Source: Fulvivirga sp.
GTDB taxonomy: Bacteria > Bacteroidota > Bacteroidia > Cytophagales > Cyclobacteriaceae
DNA length: 64,000 bases
Assembly: GCF_040218215.1 (NCBI RefSeq)
Contig: NZ_JAVJQL010000030.1
Location: 1,823-65,822, forward strand
Reading direction: 5' to 3'
Part shown: in pieces, positions 53,250 through 59,038 of the stretch
How the letters are laid out: each line of letters begins with the position of its first letter
How positions within the stretch are numbered: position 1 is the first letter of the stretch
The notes under the pieces: generated by a model
Told to the model about the DNA's origin: nothing
What the model saw: only the letters and a program-made list of their open reading frames with translations
Databases searched by the model: none
Program-made: the position numbers and the translations under genes

Positions 53250-54257
53250 ATGCCCAGAAGTTTACAAAGATTAATTTTTGCTACAGCCCTATTTATCATC
53301 AGTATGTCACTGGGTGCTGTGGGTTATATTATAATTGAAGGCTTTGCACCTCTTGATGCCATCTATATGGCTGTTATAACATTTGCCACAGTTGGTTATA
53401 ATGAAGTAAACACCCTTTCTAGCGATGGAAAGATATTTACCATCATTTTTATCATGGTAAATCTGGGCATCTTTGCTTATACAGTGTCGGTATTGTCATC
53501 CTTCTTTTTTGAAGGGGAATTGAGGAGGGTTTTTAAAAATATAATAACTTCAAGAGACGTGAAAAAATTGAAAAACCATGTAATAGTCTGCGGGTTTGGG
53601 CGGAACGGTATTAAAGTATGCGAAGAGCTCAGAAATGATAATATTGAATTTATTGTAATTGAGTCTAACAGCGAAATCATTAGCTCATTCCCGGAGGATA
53701 AAAATTATTTTTTCATTAATGGCAATGCCACGCTTGATGAAGTGCTGATGGAAGCGGGAATAAAGGAGGCAAGTACTATTATTTGTAGCCTTCCACTGGA
53801 CGCAGATAATGTTTTTATTACCCTTACAGCTCGCGAGCTGAATAAAAAGATGAAGATTATTTCAAAAGCCAATGAACCAACTTCAGAGAAAAAGCTCTAC
53901 CGGGCAGGGGCTAATTATGTGGTAATGCCTGACAGACTTGGAGGTATTCATATGGCCAATTTGATTACTAAGCCTTATGTTATTGAGTTCCTTGAACTGC
54001 TGAATGGTGTTGGTGATAGCAAACTGGTATTAGAAGAGGTGAGCCACGATAAGCTTAAACTGGAATATCAGAATAAATCACTTCGCGAGCTTGATGTGCG
54101 TAATAAAACCGGAGCGACTATTATTGCCTTTAAAGATGAAGTAGAGGGATTTATATTTAACCCACACTCAGAAAAGGCAGTGCAGAAAGGCGATGTTCTG
54201 ATTGTACTAGGTAATACCAAAAACATCGTTCAGTTTAAGCAGGTGTTTGTGGTTTAG
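53250..54257 (+). CDS. Two-TM potassium channel with RCK (TrkA-N/C) domains
   Basis: TFATVGYNE selectivity-filter variant, VCGFGRNG Rossmann motif, TrkA-C tail. Confidence 0.92.
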   Translation: MPRSLQRLIFATALFIISMSLGAVGYIIIEGFAPLDAIYMAVITFATVGYNEVNTLSSDGKIFTIIFIMVNLGIFAYTVSVLSSFFFEGELRRVFKNIITSRDVKKLKNHVIVCGFGRNGIKVCEELRNDNIEFIVIESNSEIISSFPEDKNYFFINGNATLDEVLMEAGIKEASTIICSLPLDADNVFITLTARELNKKMKIISKANEPTSEKKLYRAGANYVVMPDRLGGIHMANLITKPYVIEFLELLNGVGDSKLVLEEVSHDKLKLEYQNKSLRELDVRNKTGATIIAFKDEVEGFIFNPHSEKAVQKGDVLIVLGNTKNIVQFKQVFVV

Positions 54258-54298
54258 AAATTCCTCGCAGGTGTTCAATGAGGTTTTATTGTTTTCAC
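54145..54298 (+). repeat. Copy A of a ~154-bp direct repeat (3' end of K+ channel gene plus downstream DNA)
   Basis: Hand alignment to 55065-55218 gives 21 mismatches over 154 bp (~86%). Confidence 0.93.
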
Positions 54299-54305
54299 CA
54301 GCACT

Positions 54306-54328
54306 CATCCTCGTTTGTAACGAGGATG
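54306..54328. repeat. REP-like hairpin CATCCTCGTT-TGT-AACGAGGATG
   Basis: Perfect 10-bp stem with 3-nt loop, upstream of the RAYT. Confidence 0.8.
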
Positions 54329-54378
54329 TTAGAGACCTGCATTTAAAATGCGGTAAAGGAAAATCAAAAAAAATTAAA

Positions 54379-54925
54379 ATGTCAGGAGATAGATATAAAA
54401 TACAAGACCAGCAGGCCTGTTATTTCATAACAATGACAGTAGTCTATTGGATAGATGTCTTTAGCAGAAAAGAGTATCGGGACATTATAGTTGATTCCCT
54501 GAATTATTGTACTGATCAAAAAGGATTGAAATTGTATGCCTGGGTAGTAATGAGTAATCACGTGCATATTGTTGGGCAGGTAGAATCAGAGTTAGGAATG
54601 TCAGGTTTTTTAAGGGATTTTAAAAAATACACCTCAAAGAGAATAATTGAGGCTATTGTAGAGATATCCGAAAGTAGGAGGGATTGGTTGGTCGATAAAT
54701 TTTCTTTTGAAGCTAAAAGGACTGGAAGAGCAGAGAACTATAAGCTGTGGAAGGATGATAACCATGCCATTGACATGAGTGATATTAATCTAGTGAACAA
54801 GATTGATTACATACATGGATAATCCTGTGCGGGCAGGTTTAGAAGAATTTCCTGATCATTATTTGTACAGCAGTGCAAGAGATTATGCAGGAATAAAAGG
54901 ATTAGTTAAAGTCACTATAGCCTGA
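54379..54925 (+). pseudogene. REP-associated tyrosine transposase (RAYT, Y1 HUH), +1 frameshift at ~54817
   Basis: YFITMTVVYWIDVF, HUH motif MSNHVH, RDFKKYTS, LWKDDNH, catalytic DYIH; the +1 frame continues DNPVRAG...YLYSSARDY to TGA at 54923-54925. Confidence 0.88.
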
Positions 54926-54926
54926 C

Positions 54927-55057
54927 ATACGTTGAAAACGTATAGCTCATTCATCCTCGTTGCAAACGAGGACGAGAGGGGGTTCATTAATATGCATACT
55001 CTGGCGCACATCTGTGATGCGTGACTTATTCTAATTGCACTCGTTAAAAACGAGCGC
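54927..55057. repeat. Cluster of four REP-like hairpins with 3-nt loops downstream of the RAYT
   Basis: ATACGTT-GAA-AACGTAT (54927-54943); CATCCTCGTT-GCA-AACGAGGACG (54952-54974); CGCACATC-TGT-GATGCGTG (55005-55023); GCACTCGTT-AAA-AACGAGCGC (55037-55057). Confidence 0.78.
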
Positions 55058-55064
55058 TAACGGA

Positions 55065-55218
55065 AGGGATTTATTTTCAACCCACATTCAGAAAAGGTAG
55101 TGCAAGAAGGCGATCCTTTGATTGTATTAGGCAATACCAAAAACATTGTACAGTTTAAGCAGGTGTTTGTGGTTTAGAAATTCCTTGCAGGTGTTAAATA
55201 TGATTCTATTGTTTCAAC
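55065..55218 (+). repeat. Copy B: orphan 3' fragment of the K+ channel gene (GFIFNPHSEKVVQEGDPLIVLGNTKNIVQFKQVFVV*) plus downstream DNA
   Basis: Direct repeat of 54145-54298 at a 920-bp offset; followed by a degenerate hairpin CTCGTT-ACA-AATGAG (55218-55232). Confidence 0.93.
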
Positions 55219-55436
55219 TCGTTACAAATGAGAGCTAGCGAAGCTTTAGGAGTTGCTTGTGCCGATAAGAATAGAAATAATAATTATGGCAGCTACTACT
55301 AGTAATGGTATTAGACATCCTGAAATGAATTTTGGGGGCCTTTAAGGTACTTGACTACCTGGTGCATCACCTCTGTATTTATAACTGGTAAAGGTCAATA
55401 GTTAATCAATATTTAGCTTTCAAAGAATTCATAAAA

Positions 55437-55961
55437 TCACTTAAACCCAATCTGCTTTCCACGCCAGCCCTTCGCTTCTATATCTTCTGCGGTTTTTAGC
55501 ACTTTGTCTTTTAGCTGTGTTTTATAGGTCTCCAGATTTTTGCCAATTTCCTCATCAAAAGCACCAATGATTTCAGCAGCTAGAATGCCTGCATTTTTAG
55601 CACCATCAAGTGCTACAGTCGCTACTGGTATGCCTCCCGGCATTTGTAGAATAGAAAGGATAGAATCCCAACCATCAATAGAGTTACTTGATTTTACTGG
55701 AACGCCAATAACAGGTAAAGTGGTAATGGAAGAAACCATACCCGGTAAATGTGCCGCACCGCCAGCGCCAGCAATAATCACCTTCAATCCACGCTCTTTG
55801 GCTGACTTCGCATAATCATACATTCTTTCTGGTGTTCTGTGTGCAGAAACAACAGTCAGCTCATATTCTACCTTAAGTTCTTCCAAAATTTCAGCAGCAT
55901 CTTTCATTACTCTTAAATCAGAGTCGCTGCCCATGATTATACCTACTAGTGGCTTGCTCAT
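55437..55961 (-). CDS. purE: N5-CAIR mutase
   Basis: [27 protein letters not shown] and [11 protein letters not shown] motifs. Confidence 0.97.
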
Positions 55962-55964
55962 AAT

Positions 55965-57104
55965 CTATGCTTTTACTTTCAATGTATTTTTTACCAGATC
56001 AACAGCCTTTTTGAGCGCTGCCGTATCATTATTTCTTATCGTAACATGCCCCATTTTTCTAAAGGGCTTAGTAGTCAATTTTCCATACAAATGGACATGC
56101 ACCCCTTTTTCTGCCATTACTTTTTCCAACCCTTCATATTTGGCGATGCCAGTAAAGTCCTCTTCACCCAGTAAGTTAACCATGGCCGAAGGCAGCAGGA
56201 TATCCGTATTGCCCAAAGGCAAATTGAAAATGGCTCTCAGGTGCTGCTCATATTGTGATGTAAAATTAGCTTCTATGGTTTGATGACCACTGTTATGCGG
56301 ACGAGGGGCTATTTCATTGACCAGCACTTTTCCATCTTTAGTCACAAACATTTCAACAGCTAAAAGGCCAACCATTCCCAATCGGTTGATCACTGTCTTA
56401 GCTATCTCTTGAGCATCAGATTCTATATCAGCACTGATATCTGCTGGCGAAAACAAATACTCTACCATATTGGCCTCAGGGTGAAAAACCATTTCCACAG
56501 CAGGGAAGGTTTTAACCTCACCGCTCTCATTTCTTGCAACAATGACGGCAATCTCCTTATTGAAATCTACCAGTTTCTCCAGCAAACTTGGTGCTTCAAA
56601 GGCCTTATCAAGATCGGCTTCAGTTCTAAGAATTTGAACACCCCGGCCATCATAGCCTTCTTTTCCCAGCTTGTTAACAGCCGGCAGAAAGTTTTTATGG
56701 GTGATTACAGTTTCCTTATTATCGGTCAGGATAAATTCTGCGGTAGGTATATTATTATCTTTATAATACTGCTTTTGGATACGCTTGTCTTTTATCAGCT
56801 CGACAACCTCAGGTTGTGGATAAACTTTTACACCTTCTTTGGCCAATTGCTTCAGGGCATCCGTGTTTACATTTTCAATTTCAATGCTGATGAGATCGCA
56901 ACCCTTACCAAAGTTGTAAACAGTGTCATAATCGGTGAGCTTGCCAACAATAAATTCTGAAACAATGTTTTTACAAGGAGCATTGGCATCAGGGTCAAGG
57001 ATTTTGATATCGATATTAAAATCCAGTGCAGACTGCACGAGCATTCTGCCTAACTGGCCACCGCCTAATATTCCTAGTTTTTGTTCCTGTATTCCTTTGG
57101 TCAT
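55965..57104 (-). CDS. purK: N5-CAIR synthetase
   Basis: GILGGGQLGRM, GYDGRG, NEIAPRPHNSGH and HLYGK...RKMGH motifs. Confidence 0.97.
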   Translation of the reverse strand: MTKGIQEQKLGILGGGQLGRMLVQSALDFNIDIKILDPDANAPCKNIVSEFIVGKLTDYDTVYNFGKGCDLISIEIENVNTDALKQLAKEGVKVYPQPEVVELIKDKRIQKQYYKDNNIPTAEFILTDNKETVITHKNFLPAVNKLGKEGYDGRGVQILRTEADLDKAFEAPSLLEKLVDFNKEIAVIVARNESGEVKTFPAVEMVFHPEANMVEYLFSPADISADIESDAQEIAKTVINRLGMVGLLAVEMFVTKDGKVLVNEIAPRPHNSGHQTIEANFTSQYEQHLRAIFNLPLGNTDILLPSAMVNLLGEEDFTGIAKYEGLEKVMAEKGVHVHLYGKLTTKPFRKMGHVTIRNNDTAALKKAVDLVKNTLKVKA

Positions 57105-59038
57105 TCTAATTCAATCGTATTTATCTTATCTCCAACCTCCATTTTATGCACTACGTCCATGCCCTCAGTCACTTTTGCAAAGATAGTATAACTTCCATCT
57201 AAATGAGGAGTAGGTGAATGTGTAATGAACCACTGAGTTCCCTCAGTGTCTTGACCTGCCGAAGCCATGCCCACACTGCCTTCTTCATATCTCAGGTTCG
57301 CAAATTCGGAACGGATCGAGTAATCTTCTCCTCCATAACCATCGCCACGATTACAGCCTCCTTGGATAACAAAATTAGGAACTACCCGATGAAAGTTCTT
57401 ACCATTATAATAACCAGATTTGGCCAATGCAATAAAATTAACCACGGAACCAGGCGCATCATTTACCAGCATTCTCAATTTGACAACGCCTTTATCCGTT
57501 GAGATTTTTACAATTTGTTCTTTGTCGATGCCTTTAATAGCCGGCCAATCAATAGGATGGTTATATTCATTTTCAGGCGCTGTGTATTCCTCATTATTAA
57601 AGAATGCAATGGCCCTATCTAGCATTTGAATGGCTTCAATATCTTTTGGCAACTGAAGTGTGCTTCTTACCTCAGTTAAAAACTTAGCAGAATCATAGAC
57701 GGCTTTAAAGTTCAGATCAGGGTCAGTGATTACTGATCCTGCCACAGCTATCATGGCAATGTCTTTGGTTTCAATGGCTTGCTTAAAAATATCTGCAAAT
57801 GGCGCTTCTAATTTTTGAGGGAAGTTTTCATTAACACGCATTGTCGCTAATGCAGTAATACCTGCTGTGCCGATAGCCTTAGGTGTCTCTGCAAAAGTCT
57901 TTGTTACCACAAATTCATGAGCCAGCGGGGAGTTTCCTAGCGCACCGAGTAGATCGGCTTTATAATAATCGGATGCTGCATTATTATATTCGCTAATAAT
58001 GGCCTCAATGACCGGTTGTTTATCCTCTGCAAGTTTCAGCTGTGTACCTAATAGGGCAGCATTTATTCTGCCGGGTAAACCTTGCTTGGTTAAAGAGGTA
58101 ACGGCTTCAAGATCATTTTCATTGGCCTTGTTAGCAACTATGCCGGCAGCTGTAATTCCAACATTCACATTTTCATCATCGAGGGATTCAAAGACTGCGG
58201 TTTTGATATCCTTAAATTCAAATTTTGTTAAAGATCTTAATGCATTGACTCGTACTCTGTAATCAGAGTCTTTGGCTATAGCTGTAAGTGCGTCTAATGA
58301 TTTAGGTTCAATAGCATTGCCAAGCGCCAATGCGCTGGCCATTCTCACAAATGGTGATTTGTCTTTAGAGGCAGATTTAATGATCAATCCTGACCGGCCT
58401 TTTAAATCCAAATTTCTGCTTCGGCCTAAGAAATGTGCTGCACCTAATCTTGTCATATAAGAATTAGAGCTGTCTAATAATGAAATGGCTAAATCAACAG
58501 AAATACCATCATGCACATTTCTGAGACCAGCTCTGTATAATCCCCAAGCCAGACCTTGCTTGTCATCAGAGGTTTTAAGTGGCCAATATTGAAGCTGTCT
58601 TAATTTTTCCTGAGTAATTACCTTGCCCAATGATTCTAGTAACTGCTGCCTTACATAAACGCTGTCCTCAACCTCCAGGCTGCTAACTATTGGAGCAATA
58701 GCAGCAGTGTCTTTCATTTGGCCGAGCGCATAGGCCGCAGCTTTACGTACTTTAGGCGAACCGTCATTCAAGTTAAAAGCCACATTTTTGATGGCGGAGG
58801 TATCTTGTATGGAACCAAAGCCTAGTGTAGCCTCATACCTAAGCGTGTCATTTTCATGTCTTAGATAGGGCAATAGTTGTTTGGAGTCTCTCTTATCAAT
58901 GAGATCATAAATTTTAACCAGCTCCTCATTTTCAAATTTATTGGAAACAGGACTCTCAACTTTTTCAACCTGGCTTTGACAGGCAGAAATGATAATGATA
59001 ATCAGTGCAACGGGCCAGCTCTTTAATAATTTATACAT
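57101..59038 (-). CDS. Lipoprotein with HEAT repeats and C-terminal cyclophilin-type PPIase
   Basis: Lipobox ISAC; HEAT repeats (VRKAAAYALGQ); FHRVVPNFVIQGG and SQW-like GTQWFITHS. Confidence 0.9.
   Translation of the reverse strand: MYKLLKSWPVALIIIIISACQSQVEKVESPVSNKFENEELVKIYDLIDKRDSKQLLPYLRHENDTLRYEATLGFGSIQDTSAIKNVAFNLNDGSPKVRKAAAYALGQMKDTAAIAPIVSSLEVEDSVYVRQQLLESLGKVITQEKLRQLQYWPLKTSDDKQGLAWGLYRAGLRNVHDGISVDLAISLLDSSNSYMTRLGAAHFLGRSRNLDLKGRSGLIIKSASKDKSPFVRMASALALGNAIEPKSLDALTAIAKDSDYRVRVNALRSLTKFEFKDIKTAVFESLDDENVNVGITAAGIVANKANENDLEAVTSLTKQGLPGRINAALLGTQLKLAEDKQPVIEAIISEYNNAASDYYKADLLGALGNSPLAHEFVVTKTFAETPKAIGTAGITALATMRVNENFPQKLEAPFADIFKQAIETKDIAMIAVAGSVITDPDLNFKAVYDSAKFLTEVRSTLQLPKDIEAIQMLDRAIAFFNNEEYTAPENEYNHPIDWPAIKGIDKEQIVKISTDKGVVKLRMLVNDAPGSVVNFIALAKSGYYNGKNFHRVVPNFVIQGGCNRGDGYGGEDYSIRSEFANLRYEEGSVGMASAGQDTEGTQWFITHSPTPHLDGSYTIFAKVTEGMDVVHKMEVGDKINTIELE

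What the first reader, a model, noticed from the sequence alone, without database searches (positions are those of the whole stretch)
54145..55232. RAYT cassette bracketed by a diverged duplicate of the host gene's 3' end
Seen: the last 36 codons of the K+ channel gene plus ~40 bp downstream recur 920 bp later (~86% identical; 9 synonymous versus 3 non-synonymous codon changes), with the RAYT and its hairpins between the copies. Copy B begins ~7 nt after a REP-like hairpin and ends at another hairpin with a similar tail (GCTAACGGAAG versus GCTAGCGAAG). This is far too long and diverged for an ordinary target-site duplication. Inference: the synonymous bias means both copies were once functional alleles, so the cassette probably arrived from a relative carrying its own gene end. 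It would have integrated by homologous recombination on the left and a REP-proximal, possibly RAYT-catalysed, junction on the right. That would be a route for RAYT spread and allele replacement; RAYTs are generally regarded as non-mobile, and I do not know of this being described.
Basis: partly seen in the sequence, partly recalled or inferred. Interest (0 to 1): 0.8.

Follow-up and report, generated by a model that had tools for sequence, protein, structure and literature searches.

The report
Gene-end duplicate beside a REP/RAYT cassette
The repeat is real: two different natural versions of a potassium-channel gene's tail sit on either side of a small transposase cassette in a marine Fulvivirga. 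They are joined exactly at the edge of a repeated hairpin element, and the same kind of joint recurs in related strains and other Bacteroidota, which gives a handle on how such hairpin repeats reshape gene ends.

Summary
Observation confirmed. Positions 54145-54294 and 55065-55214 are 87% identical, spaced 920 bp, and occur only twice in the genome. They bracket a frameshifted RAYT with its REP hairpins.

Interpretation partly supported.
- **Empty site.** Conspecific strains have an empty site whose gene end, tail, REP and downstream DNA equal the right two thirds of copy B and what follows it.
- **RAYT allele without a duplicate.** Another strain carries copy A's sequence with the RAYT and no duplicate.
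- **Haplotype switch.** The window's channel gene switches haplotype at 54084-54097.

So both copies descend from functional alleles, and homologous exchange shaped the locus.

The right joint lies at the 3' boundary of a REP, with 2-nt microhomology. Two further REP-end-to-gene-end joints at other positions occur in the same species, one of them tentative. Of 174 related REP sites across Bacteroidota, 18% are followed by a copy of upstream DNA, against 2.6% of control positions.

RAYT catalysis is not shown. The joint uses another REP family, the offsets differ between joints, and this RAYT is broken. The RAYT cassette itself looks IS-like.

Tandem REPIN clusters that include flanks are already known in Pseudomonas. 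I rate this a new variant of a known kind, of moderate interest.

The parts
53250..54257 (+). K+ channel gene (Ion_trans_2 + TrkA_N + TrkA_C), intact, 335 aa. It is a mosaic: like the empty-site strain L050 up to 54083, and like the RAYT-linked allele of L048 from 54098.
   Evidence: Pfam; SNP table; Fisher test
54145..54294 (+). Copy A: the last 37 codons, the stop and a 37-nt tail (tailA). This is the allele that is linked to the RAYT cassette in other strains.
54300..54981 (+). RAYT cassette: left REP-a hairpin (core 54308-54326), RAYT ORF, right REP-a hairpin (core 54954-54972), and a 3' tail ending GACGAGAGGGG at 54981. It is IS-like: copies lie at other loci and internally deleted mini-copies exist.
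54379..54922 (+). RAYT gene, broken by an extra G at 54817 just after the DYIH motif. The gene is intact in L049 and in three metagenomes.
54982..55064 (+). Segment X: a 5' half that is unique in this genome plus a REP-b hairpin (55037-55057) with tail TAACGGA(AG). The sister species G014 has the same segment at 91% identity directly after its channel gene's stop codon.
55064..55067 (+). The novel joint: the 3' boundary of REP-b meets codon -37 of the gene end, with 2-nt microhomology (AG).
   Evidence: the same joint is in metagenome run X1
55065..55129 (+). Copy B, left third: 11 differences from every conspecific allele. Seven of them match the states of outgroups G014 or G005, so this is an old or divergent allele. 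GCA>GTA and GTT>CCT are private changes.
55130..55214 (+). Copy B, right part: identical to the functional gene end and tail of empty-site strains L050 and L052.
55215..55243 (+). REP4: a decayed REP-b hairpin with tail TAGCGAAG. It is present in the empty-site allele too.
55437..55961 (-). purE, which forms the right border of the variable islet.

Best explanation
The locus is a structural allele of a hypervariable islet between the K+ channel gene and purE in a strongly recombining Fulvivirga species. Two different population alleles of the gene's 3' end are joined head to tail. Allele A carries the IS-like RAYT cassette and segment X. Allele B is the end found at empty sites.

Most likely the joint formed between two alleles, with incoming DNA from a conspecific meeting the resident chromosome. 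One ordinary homologous crossover lay inside the channel gene (54084-54097). One microhomology joint (AG) linked the 3' boundary of the donor's REP-b to codon -37 of the resident gene end. This is the pattern of homology-facilitated illegitimate recombination or template switching. Allele A supplies the working gene end, and allele B is the displaced relic. Later homologous patches overwrote parts of it.

Shown: the two allele classes, the empty site, the haplotype switch, the position and microhomology of the joint, and that such joints recur. Inferred: that joint and import were one event, and what breaks DNA at the REP boundary.
For: - Empty site L050 is colinear with the window minus 920 bp, at 97.7% on the left and 96% on the right.
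- Copy B from 55130 to 55448 has 3 differences in 319 nt from L050, against 11 in 65 nt in its left third.
- L048 carries gene, copy A's sequence, tailA, REP1 and RAYT remnants with no second copy.
- The haplotype switch in the gene goes from 10:0 to 1:13.
- Flanks are 99% identical with patches at 86-94%, so recombination is frequent.
- Three REP-end-to-gene-end joints in this species each link a RAYT/tailA allele to what is, or appears to be, a tailB/REP4-type allele. The window has X joined to position 54145. L049 has REP4' joined to the equivalent of 54181, with the order of the copies reversed. Metagenome runs X1 and X3 have REP2 joined to the equivalent of 54196; there only about 43 nt of the gene-end fragment were seen, not its tail or REP. 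Units of different allele class are what recombination between alleles gives directly. In-situ duplication would start with identical units.
- L049 shows that 14%-divergent functional patches exist in this very gene.
Against: - No strain was found with allele A plus X followed by non-B DNA, which would be the postulated donor.
- X and the left third of copy B were only ever seen together, and both look old (X is 91% identical to the sister species). The joint may therefore predate the import of allele A.
- The haplotype switch could have arisen in the lineage of L050 or L048 rather than in the window's.
- The third joint rests on short Logan contigs with only 29-30 nt on one side.
- Nothing is known about natural transformation or other DNA uptake in Fulvivirga.
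Confidence: 0.45

Rival explanations
1. An old in-situ tandem duplication of the unit (gene end + tail + REP-b), of the kind that builds ordered REP/REPIN clusters. It would arise by slippage or template switching at the REP boundary. The RAYT cassette then transposed into unit 1. The units became different alleles later, through homologous exchange or gene conversion with other strains.
For: - Contig L075 has six tandem units of a RibD_C-like gene's 3' end plus REP-a. The units are 93-100% alike and the joints show GG-GGGG microhomology, which plainly points to in-situ formation.
- 31 of 174 REP-a sites have upstream DNA repeated right after the REP, against 15 of 571 controls.
- Pseudomonas SBW25 has 16 ordered REPIN clusters that include flanks, three of them next to RAYTs (PMC3116915).
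- X and the left third of copy B look old.
- The cassette is IS-like.
Against: - All three joints in this species are between different allele classes.
- Bringing tailA-RAYT next to B-tailB-REP4 by homologous exchange would need a right-hand crossover in about 30 nt of 77%-identical REP. That again amounts to an illegitimate joint.
- The RAYT-bearing allele without a duplicate (L048) shares the identical tailA-REP1 junction.
Confidence: 0.3
2. The break at the REP boundary is made by an enzyme. A RAYT (an HUH Y1 nuclease) nicks single-stranded DNA a few nucleotides 3' of the hairpin. The free 3' end is then strand-transferred to an upstream site, or primes synthesis there. This yields units of flank, payload and REP that can also move between alleles, which is the reader's RAYT-catalysed junction.
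For: - The REP-a 3' boundary is sharp. The same end (GACGAGAGGGG) abuts four different sequences: X in the window, the gene end in X1 and X3, an internal RAYT fragment in L048, and unique DNA in L048.
- The boundary lies about 9-10 nt 3' of the hairpin foot. From my own knowledge, that is the geometry of the IS608 right-end cleavage site.
- Loci L064 and L067 show a payload plus REP-a bracketed by diverged direct repeats of 281 and 82 nt.
Against: - The window's joint is at a REP-b, a family associated with other RAYTs (on contigs C20 and C7), not at this cassette's REP-a.
- Joint offsets on REP-b differ between the window (7-9 nt after the stem) and L049 (4 nt).
- Microhomology at every joint fits host replication or repair equally well.
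- No biochemistry exists for this family, and phmmer found no solved homologue.
- The RAYT in the window is frameshifted.
Confidence: 0.15
3. Campbell-type integration. A circle made of gene-end fragment, tailA, RAYT and X, closed at the REP boundary, recombined homologously with the resident gene end.
For: Copy B is a chimera, foreign-looking on the left and resident-like on the right. A single crossover inside the repeat predicts that pattern.
Against: A single crossover also predicts that copy A is resident-like to the left of the same point. Instead, copy A carries the RAYT-linked states at 54182, 54198 and 54209, to the left of copy B's switch at the equivalent of 54209 or later. No circle junction was seen.
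Confidence: 0.07
4. Assembly chimera of two strains' alleles, or an ordinary target-site duplication.
For: The source may be a metagenome bin, and short-read contigs break inside the 35-nt identical stretch of the repeat.
Against: Two assemblies agree. An independent 2019 metagenome contig spans the joint. The repeat is 150 nt long and 13% diverged, and IS200-type elements make no target-site duplication.
Confidence: 0.02

Closest known systems
Ordered (tandem) REPIN/REP clusters including flanking sequence, Pseudomonas fluorescens SBW25 (Bertels & Rainey 2011, PMC3116915)
   Same: The units consist of a 5' flank plus a REP, repeated head to tail. Some of these clusters lie beside RAYT genes. 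How they form is unknown. REP clusters are regarded as recombination hot spots (PMC11708052).
   Different: Here the flank is the 3' end of a coding gene. The two units are different population alleles, 13% apart. A whole RAYT cassette sits inside unit 1. The REP family belongs to Bacteroidota. Joints can be mapped to the nucleotide and show microhomology.
Homology-facilitated illegitimate recombination in natural transformation (Acinetobacter, Streptococcus, Pseudomonas stutzeri; own knowledge; the term is used in PMC6382021 and PMC8116780)
   Same: There is one homologous anchor (the channel gene) and one joint at 2-4 nt of microhomology, and extra DNA is brought in.
   Different: The outcome here is a duplication of resident DNA rather than a deletion. 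The donor end lies at a REP boundary in the window and apparently in the tentative X1/X3 joint, while in L049 the REP end is on the resident side. DNA uptake is not documented for Fulvivirga. Nothing was tested experimentally.
IS200/IS605 elements and RAYTs (HUH Y1 transposases; Bertels et al. 2017, PMC5581495)
   Same: The ORF meets the NCBIfam RAYT model. Hairpins flank it. There is no short target-site duplication. Internally deleted derivatives with the same ends exist.
   Different: RAYT groups 2 and 3 are single-copy and vertically inherited. This cassette is multi-copy, at non-syntenic sites and polymorphic within a species. The 150-nt bracket is not a product of any known transposition chemistry.
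Integrative elements that carry a replacement 3' end of their target gene (e14 or phage 21 in icd, islands in tRNA genes; own knowledge)
   Same: The incoming segment supplies a working, mostly synonymously diverged gene end, and the resident end is left as a downstream relic.
   Different: There is no integrase and no attachment-site core, and the segment is only 920 bp. The exchange is homologous plus illegitimate, not site-specific.

Membership tests
RAYT (REP-associated tyrosine transposase) | Sequence membership: curated RAYT model above its cut-off, with IS200 model below it | tested here: met
   NF047646 scores 84.9 bits (window, read through the frameshift) and 95.4 bits (L049), against a cut-off of 80. 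The IS200 model scores 24-26 bits against a cut-off of 55. Pfam Y1_Tnp matches.
RAYT (REP-associated tyrosine transposase) | HUH motif and catalytic tyrosine intact | tested here: inconclusive
   The HVH and DYIH motifs are visible in the translation. The window copy is frameshifted one codon after YIH and loses the C-terminal 35 aa. The gene is intact in L049 and in runs X1-X3. I assigned the motif roles from memory.
RAYT (REP-associated tyrosine transposase) | Flanked by the REP family that it is associated with, and that family is dispersed in the genome | tested here: inconclusive
   REP-a hairpins flank it. In this genome REP-a occurs only at the two related cassettes and one mini-copy. 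The same REP-a end is dispersed in many other Bacteroidota, mostly without an adjacent RAYT.
RAYT groups 2/3 (domesticated, single-copy, vertically inherited) | One copy per genome at a syntenic locus | tested here: not met
   There are five RAYT-like genes in this genome. A 79%-identical copy plus a mini-copy sit on contig C6. Copies are at non-syntenic sites in G022, G017, G019, G014 and G005. The locus is occupied or empty among conspecifics.
Ordered REP/REPIN tandem cluster | Head-to-tail units, each made of flank plus REP, with the joint at the REP edge | tested here: met
   Unit 1 ends ...GCGCTAACGGAAG and unit 2 ends ...GAGCTAGCGAAG. Both start at the same gene position.
Ordered REP/REPIN tandem cluster | Units nearly identical, as expected of in-situ duplication | tested here: not met
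   The units are 87% identical and belong to different population alleles.
Homology-facilitated illegitimate recombination | A homologous anchor next to a microhomology joint | tested here: met
   The haplotype switch lies at 54084-54097, and the joint has a 2-nt AG overlap.
Homology-facilitated illegitimate recombination | Arises on uptake of foreign DNA | not testable with these tools
   There are no experimental data, and the donor allele was not found.
Transposon target-site duplication | A short repeat, identical at birth, directly abutting both element ends | tested here: not met
   The repeat is 150 nt long and 13% diverged. Copy A abuts REP1 but copy B abuts X, which is not part of the cassette.
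Site-specific integrative element with a replacement gene end | An integrase gene and a conserved attachment-site core | tested here: not met
   The only ORF between the copies is the RAYT.

The most novel reading that the evidence does not exclude
The 3' boundary of these Bacteroidota REPs is a RAYT nick site. The nicked end, by strand transfer or microhomology-primed synthesis, creates units of upstream flank, payload and REP. These units duplicate gene ends in place, and they can be recombined into homologous loci of other strains. That would be a flank-carrying way for REPs, RAYTs and small payload genes to spread and to replace gene 3' ends.
Probability: 0.15. Interest if true: 0.8.

Novelty: new variant of a known kind. 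Interest (0 to 1): 0.55.

Why it matters
How REP clusters form, and whether RAYTs ever move DNA other than REPINs, are open questions. This locus offers nucleotide-resolved joints at REP boundaries in several natural alleles of one species: empty, RAYT only, and two or three kinds of duplicate. The REP family is conserved across Bacteroidota, and about one site in six shows the same flank duplication. That makes the question testable by RAYT cleavage assays, long-read population surveys and duplication assays. It also shows that a 'domesticated' RAYT can be a presence/absence polymorphism shuffled by ordinary homologous recombination, with gene ends replaced as a side effect.

Tried and rejected
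- **Exact-protein look-up of the window's channel protein:** nothing on record.
- **RAYT homologue search:** the nearest relatives outside this locus are 80% identical or less, so it gave no further contexts.
- **phmmer against PDB with the intact RAYT:** no hit.
- **Raw reads:** none available, only Logan contigs, so depth and spanning reads could not be checked.
- **Own-genome survey:** no other REP in this genome is followed by a duplicate of upstream DNA.
- **Random hypermutation of copy B's left third:** rejected, because 7 of its 11 differences match outgroup states.
- **Uniform pseudogene decay of copy B:** rejected, with 11 differences in 65 nt against 3 in 319 nt (p=4e-7).
- **Single-crossover Campbell integration:** does not fit the allele map.
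- **Target-site duplication and assembly chimera:** rejected (see the rival explanations).
- **Shyamala et al. 1990 on REPs at duplication join points:** not held in the library. I know it only from the reference list of PMC11708052.
Full report
**1. What is there**

The window lies in a Fulvivirga genome (Cytophagales). The closest named relatives of the channel protein are Fulvivirga species, and G014 is F. lutimaris.

A 335-aa K+ channel gene (Ion_trans_2, TrkA_N, TrkA_C) ends at 54257 and converges on purE (55437-55961, minus strand). Between them, in order:
- a 37-nt tail (tailA);
- a hairpin, REP1;
- a RAYT gene;
- a hairpin, REP2;
- an 83-nt segment X that ends in a second kind of hairpin (REP-b);
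- a second copy of the last 37 codons, stop and tail (copy B, 55065-55214);
- a decayed REP-b (REP4).

The repeat is 150 nt long and 87% identical, with a spacing of 920 bp. It has only these two copies in the 5.1-Mb genome. The coding part differs at 9 synonymous and 3 non-synonymous codons, plus one at the boundary codon.

The RAYT passes the NCBIfam RAYT model. It carries an extra G at 54817 that breaks the frame right after DYIH.

**2. It is not an artefact**

- A second assembly (L041) is 99.99% identical over 8.5 kb and has the same structure.
- Logan contigs of other runs go from inside copy B into purE at 100% identity.
- A 208-nt contig from a 2019 biofilm metagenome of another study spans REP2, X and the start of copy B with one difference.
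- The same runs, and strain L049, lack the extra G. The frameshift is therefore private to this strain.

**3. Two REP families**

- **REP-a** (core TCCTCGTT-loop-AACGAGGA, right end GACGAG plus about 5 nt) flanks this RAYT. In this genome it also flanks a 79%-identical RAYT on contig C6 and an internally deleted mini-copy next to it.
- The cassette recurs at non-syntenic places in other Fulvivirga genomes, again with mini-copies. It behaves like an insertion sequence, not like a single-copy domesticated RAYT (compare PMC5581495).
- **REP-b** (AAT-GCACTCGTT-loop-AACGAGCGC-NAGCTGRG) has about 20 copies, including beside the more distant RAYTs on C20 and C7.
- The hairpin in X and REP4 are both REP-b. 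The joint with copy B is therefore not at this RAYT's own REP type.

**4. Relatives**

The public protein and contig collections hold several conspecific strains. Their flanks are about 99% identical to the window, with patches at 86-94%, which indicates frequent homologous recombination. The islet between the channel gene and purE differs in nearly every strain.

| Strain or genome | What lies between the channel gene and purE |
|---|---|
| L050, L051, L052 | Empty: 260 bp |
| L048 | RAYT remnants and a 157-aa ORF |
| L046 | A transposase fragment |
| L054, G005 | A C14 peptidase gene |
| G014 | A 77-aa ORF |
| L042, L044 | A 147-aa ORF |

- **L050** is colinear with the window minus 920 bp. 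From the equivalent of 54198 onward, its gene end, tail, REP4 and the next 230 bp match copy B and its downstream DNA (0 and 3 differences).
- **L048** has copy A's sequence, tailA, REP1 and a deleted RAYT, with no second copy.

Both allele classes are thus working gene ends in nature.

**5. Breakpoints**

- In the window's channel gene, sites that distinguish L050 from L048 go 10:0 L050-like up to 54083, then 13:1 L048-like from 54098 (p=5.6e-6). Which lineage recombined cannot be told from three sequences.
- Copy B is itself composite. Positions 55065-55129 carry 11 differences from every conspecific allele, and the following 319 nt carry 3 (p=4e-7).
- Seven of those 11 states match outgroups G014 or G005. 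The left third is therefore an old or divergent allele, not random damage.
- In the biofilm contig one private change is only half made (GCT rather than CCT). Read that way, the patch has about 5 synonymous and 3 conservative replacement changes, like a once-functional allele.
- L049 shows that patches 14% divergent yet functional exist in this same gene.

**6. The joint**

- X ends ...GAGCGC-TAACGGAAG, and REP4 ends ...GAGAGC-TAGCGAAG followed by native downstream DNA.
- Copy B starts at AGGGATTT. The gene reads ...GTAG-AGGGATTT at that point.
- The joint is therefore at the natural 3' boundary of a REP-b, with a 2-nt (AG) overlap.
- In F. lutimaris (G014), X (91% identical) follows the channel gene's stop codon directly. 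X is the sister-species type of tail plus REP.

**7. Recurrence in the species**

- L049 has the reverse order: the gene with a B-type end, tailB, REP4', then a second gene-end fragment starting at the equivalent of 54181, followed by tailA, REP1 and an intact RAYT. There the joint is 4 nt after the REP-b stem, with a 1-nt overlap.
- Runs X1 and X3 contain a joint from the REP2 boundary (54981) to the equivalent of 54196. This one is tentative, with 29-30 nt on one side.
- L048 and X3 have the REP2 boundary joined to an internal RAYT fragment.

That makes three gene-end joints at different gene positions. Each has a REP 3' boundary on the left, and each links a RAYT/tailA allele to a tailB/REP4-type allele.

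**8. Recurrence elsewhere**

- The 30-nt REP-a right end occurs in metagenome contigs and in genomes of several Bacteroidota classes, mostly without an adjacent RAYT. A looser pattern hit more than 119 loci.
- Of 174 non-redundant sites, 31 (in 22 loci) have the DNA that begins 1-7 nt after the REP end repeated within 4 kb upstream on the same strand. Among random positions in the same loci the figure is 15 of 571 (p=6e-11). Sites inside one array are not independent, and I inspected only three loci by eye.
- **L075:** a RibD_C-like gene is followed by six units, each made of a 25-157-nt fragment of that gene's 3' end, a hairpin and a REP-a. The joints fall at the REP's terminal G run, opposite GG-GGGG in the gene.
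- **L064 and L067:** direct repeats of 281 and 82 nt, 88% and 91% identical, bracket a payload that ends in REP-a.
- Most other cases are intergenic arrays of flank plus REP.

[quoted passage not shown] SBW25 has sixteen of them, three beside RAYTs, and their mechanism is unknown (PMC3116915). REP clusters are also described as recombination hot spots (PMC11708052).

**9. Mechanism**

- **Shown:** the two allele classes, the empty site, a haplotype switch in the gene, a microhomology joint at a REP boundary, and recurrence of such joints.
- **Inferred, most likely (0.45):** the joint formed when a RAYT-bearing allele met an empty-type allele. There was one homologous crossover in the gene and one illegitimate joint at the REP boundary. 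Later homologous patches followed.
   - The main argument is that all three joints in the species are, or appear to be, between different allele classes.
   - No purely homologous route can place tailA-RAYT next to B-tailB-REP4.
- **Rival (0.30):** an older in-situ duplication of flank plus REP, as in L075. The cassette transposed into it, and the copies were later converted to different alleles.
- **What breaks DNA at the REP boundary is open.** It could be a RAYT nick (0.15) or hairpin-induced slippage.
   - For a nick: the sharp REP-a boundary abuts four different partners.
   - Against a nick: the window's joint uses REP-b, the offsets differ between joints, every joint has microhomology, and this RAYT is broken.
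- A Campbell-type circle does not fit the allele map.

**10. Verdict**

Allele import by homologous recombination and a REP-edge joint are well founded. RAYT catalysis and a special route of RAYT spread are not shown.

This is a new variant of a known kind (REP clusters with flank duplication). It is made interesting by the copies of different allele class, the nested RAYT, and a tractable set of natural joints.

Noticed in passing
L075:2740-3600 (JGI contig Ga0206890_1123): Six tandem units follow a RibD_C-like gene. Each unit is a fragment of that gene's 3' end (25, 32, 107 or 157 nt) plus a GC hairpin and a REP-a. The joints fall at the REP's terminal G run, opposite G runs in the gene.
   Followed up: partly
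loci L055-L172 and later: A 30-nt REP-a right end (CATCCTCGTTNNAAACGAGGACGAGAGGGG) is conserved in Cytophagales, Chitinophagales, Bacteroidales, Sphingobacteriales and Flavobacteriales genomes, mostly with no RAYT beside it. That is unusually wide conservation for a REP. Hits in bins labelled 'Bordetella parapertussis' and Patescibacteria (L110, L081) are probably binning errors.
   Followed up: partly
window 55449-57300 (purE-purK): This stretch is 6-15% diverged from all four conspecific strains compared, while the DNA on either side is 99-100% identical. It looks like a recombination tract imported from an unsampled lineage.
   Followed up: no
L049:3940-4850 (equivalent to window 53282-54186): The K+ channel gene of a conspecific MAG carries a roughly 900-nt patch only about 86% identical to the species consensus, yet the gene is intact.
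   Followed up: no
G000 contig C6:224357-225684 (L003, L007): A second RAYT cassette (79% aa identity) sits on contig C6. About 360 bp upstream of it lies an internally deleted, MITE-like copy of about 300 bp with the same hairpin ends.
   Followed up: partly
L048:5190-5510: There is a tandem partial duplication of the RAYT 3' end. A 50-nt fragment plus REP2 is followed, exactly at the REP2 boundary, by a 145-nt fragment plus a second REP2.
   Followed up: partly
window 54145-55243: All REPs here are on the + strand. If the origin proposed earlier at about 16 kb is right, the + strand is the lagging-strand template. That is the strand on which IS200-type enzymes act (own knowledge).
   Followed up: no
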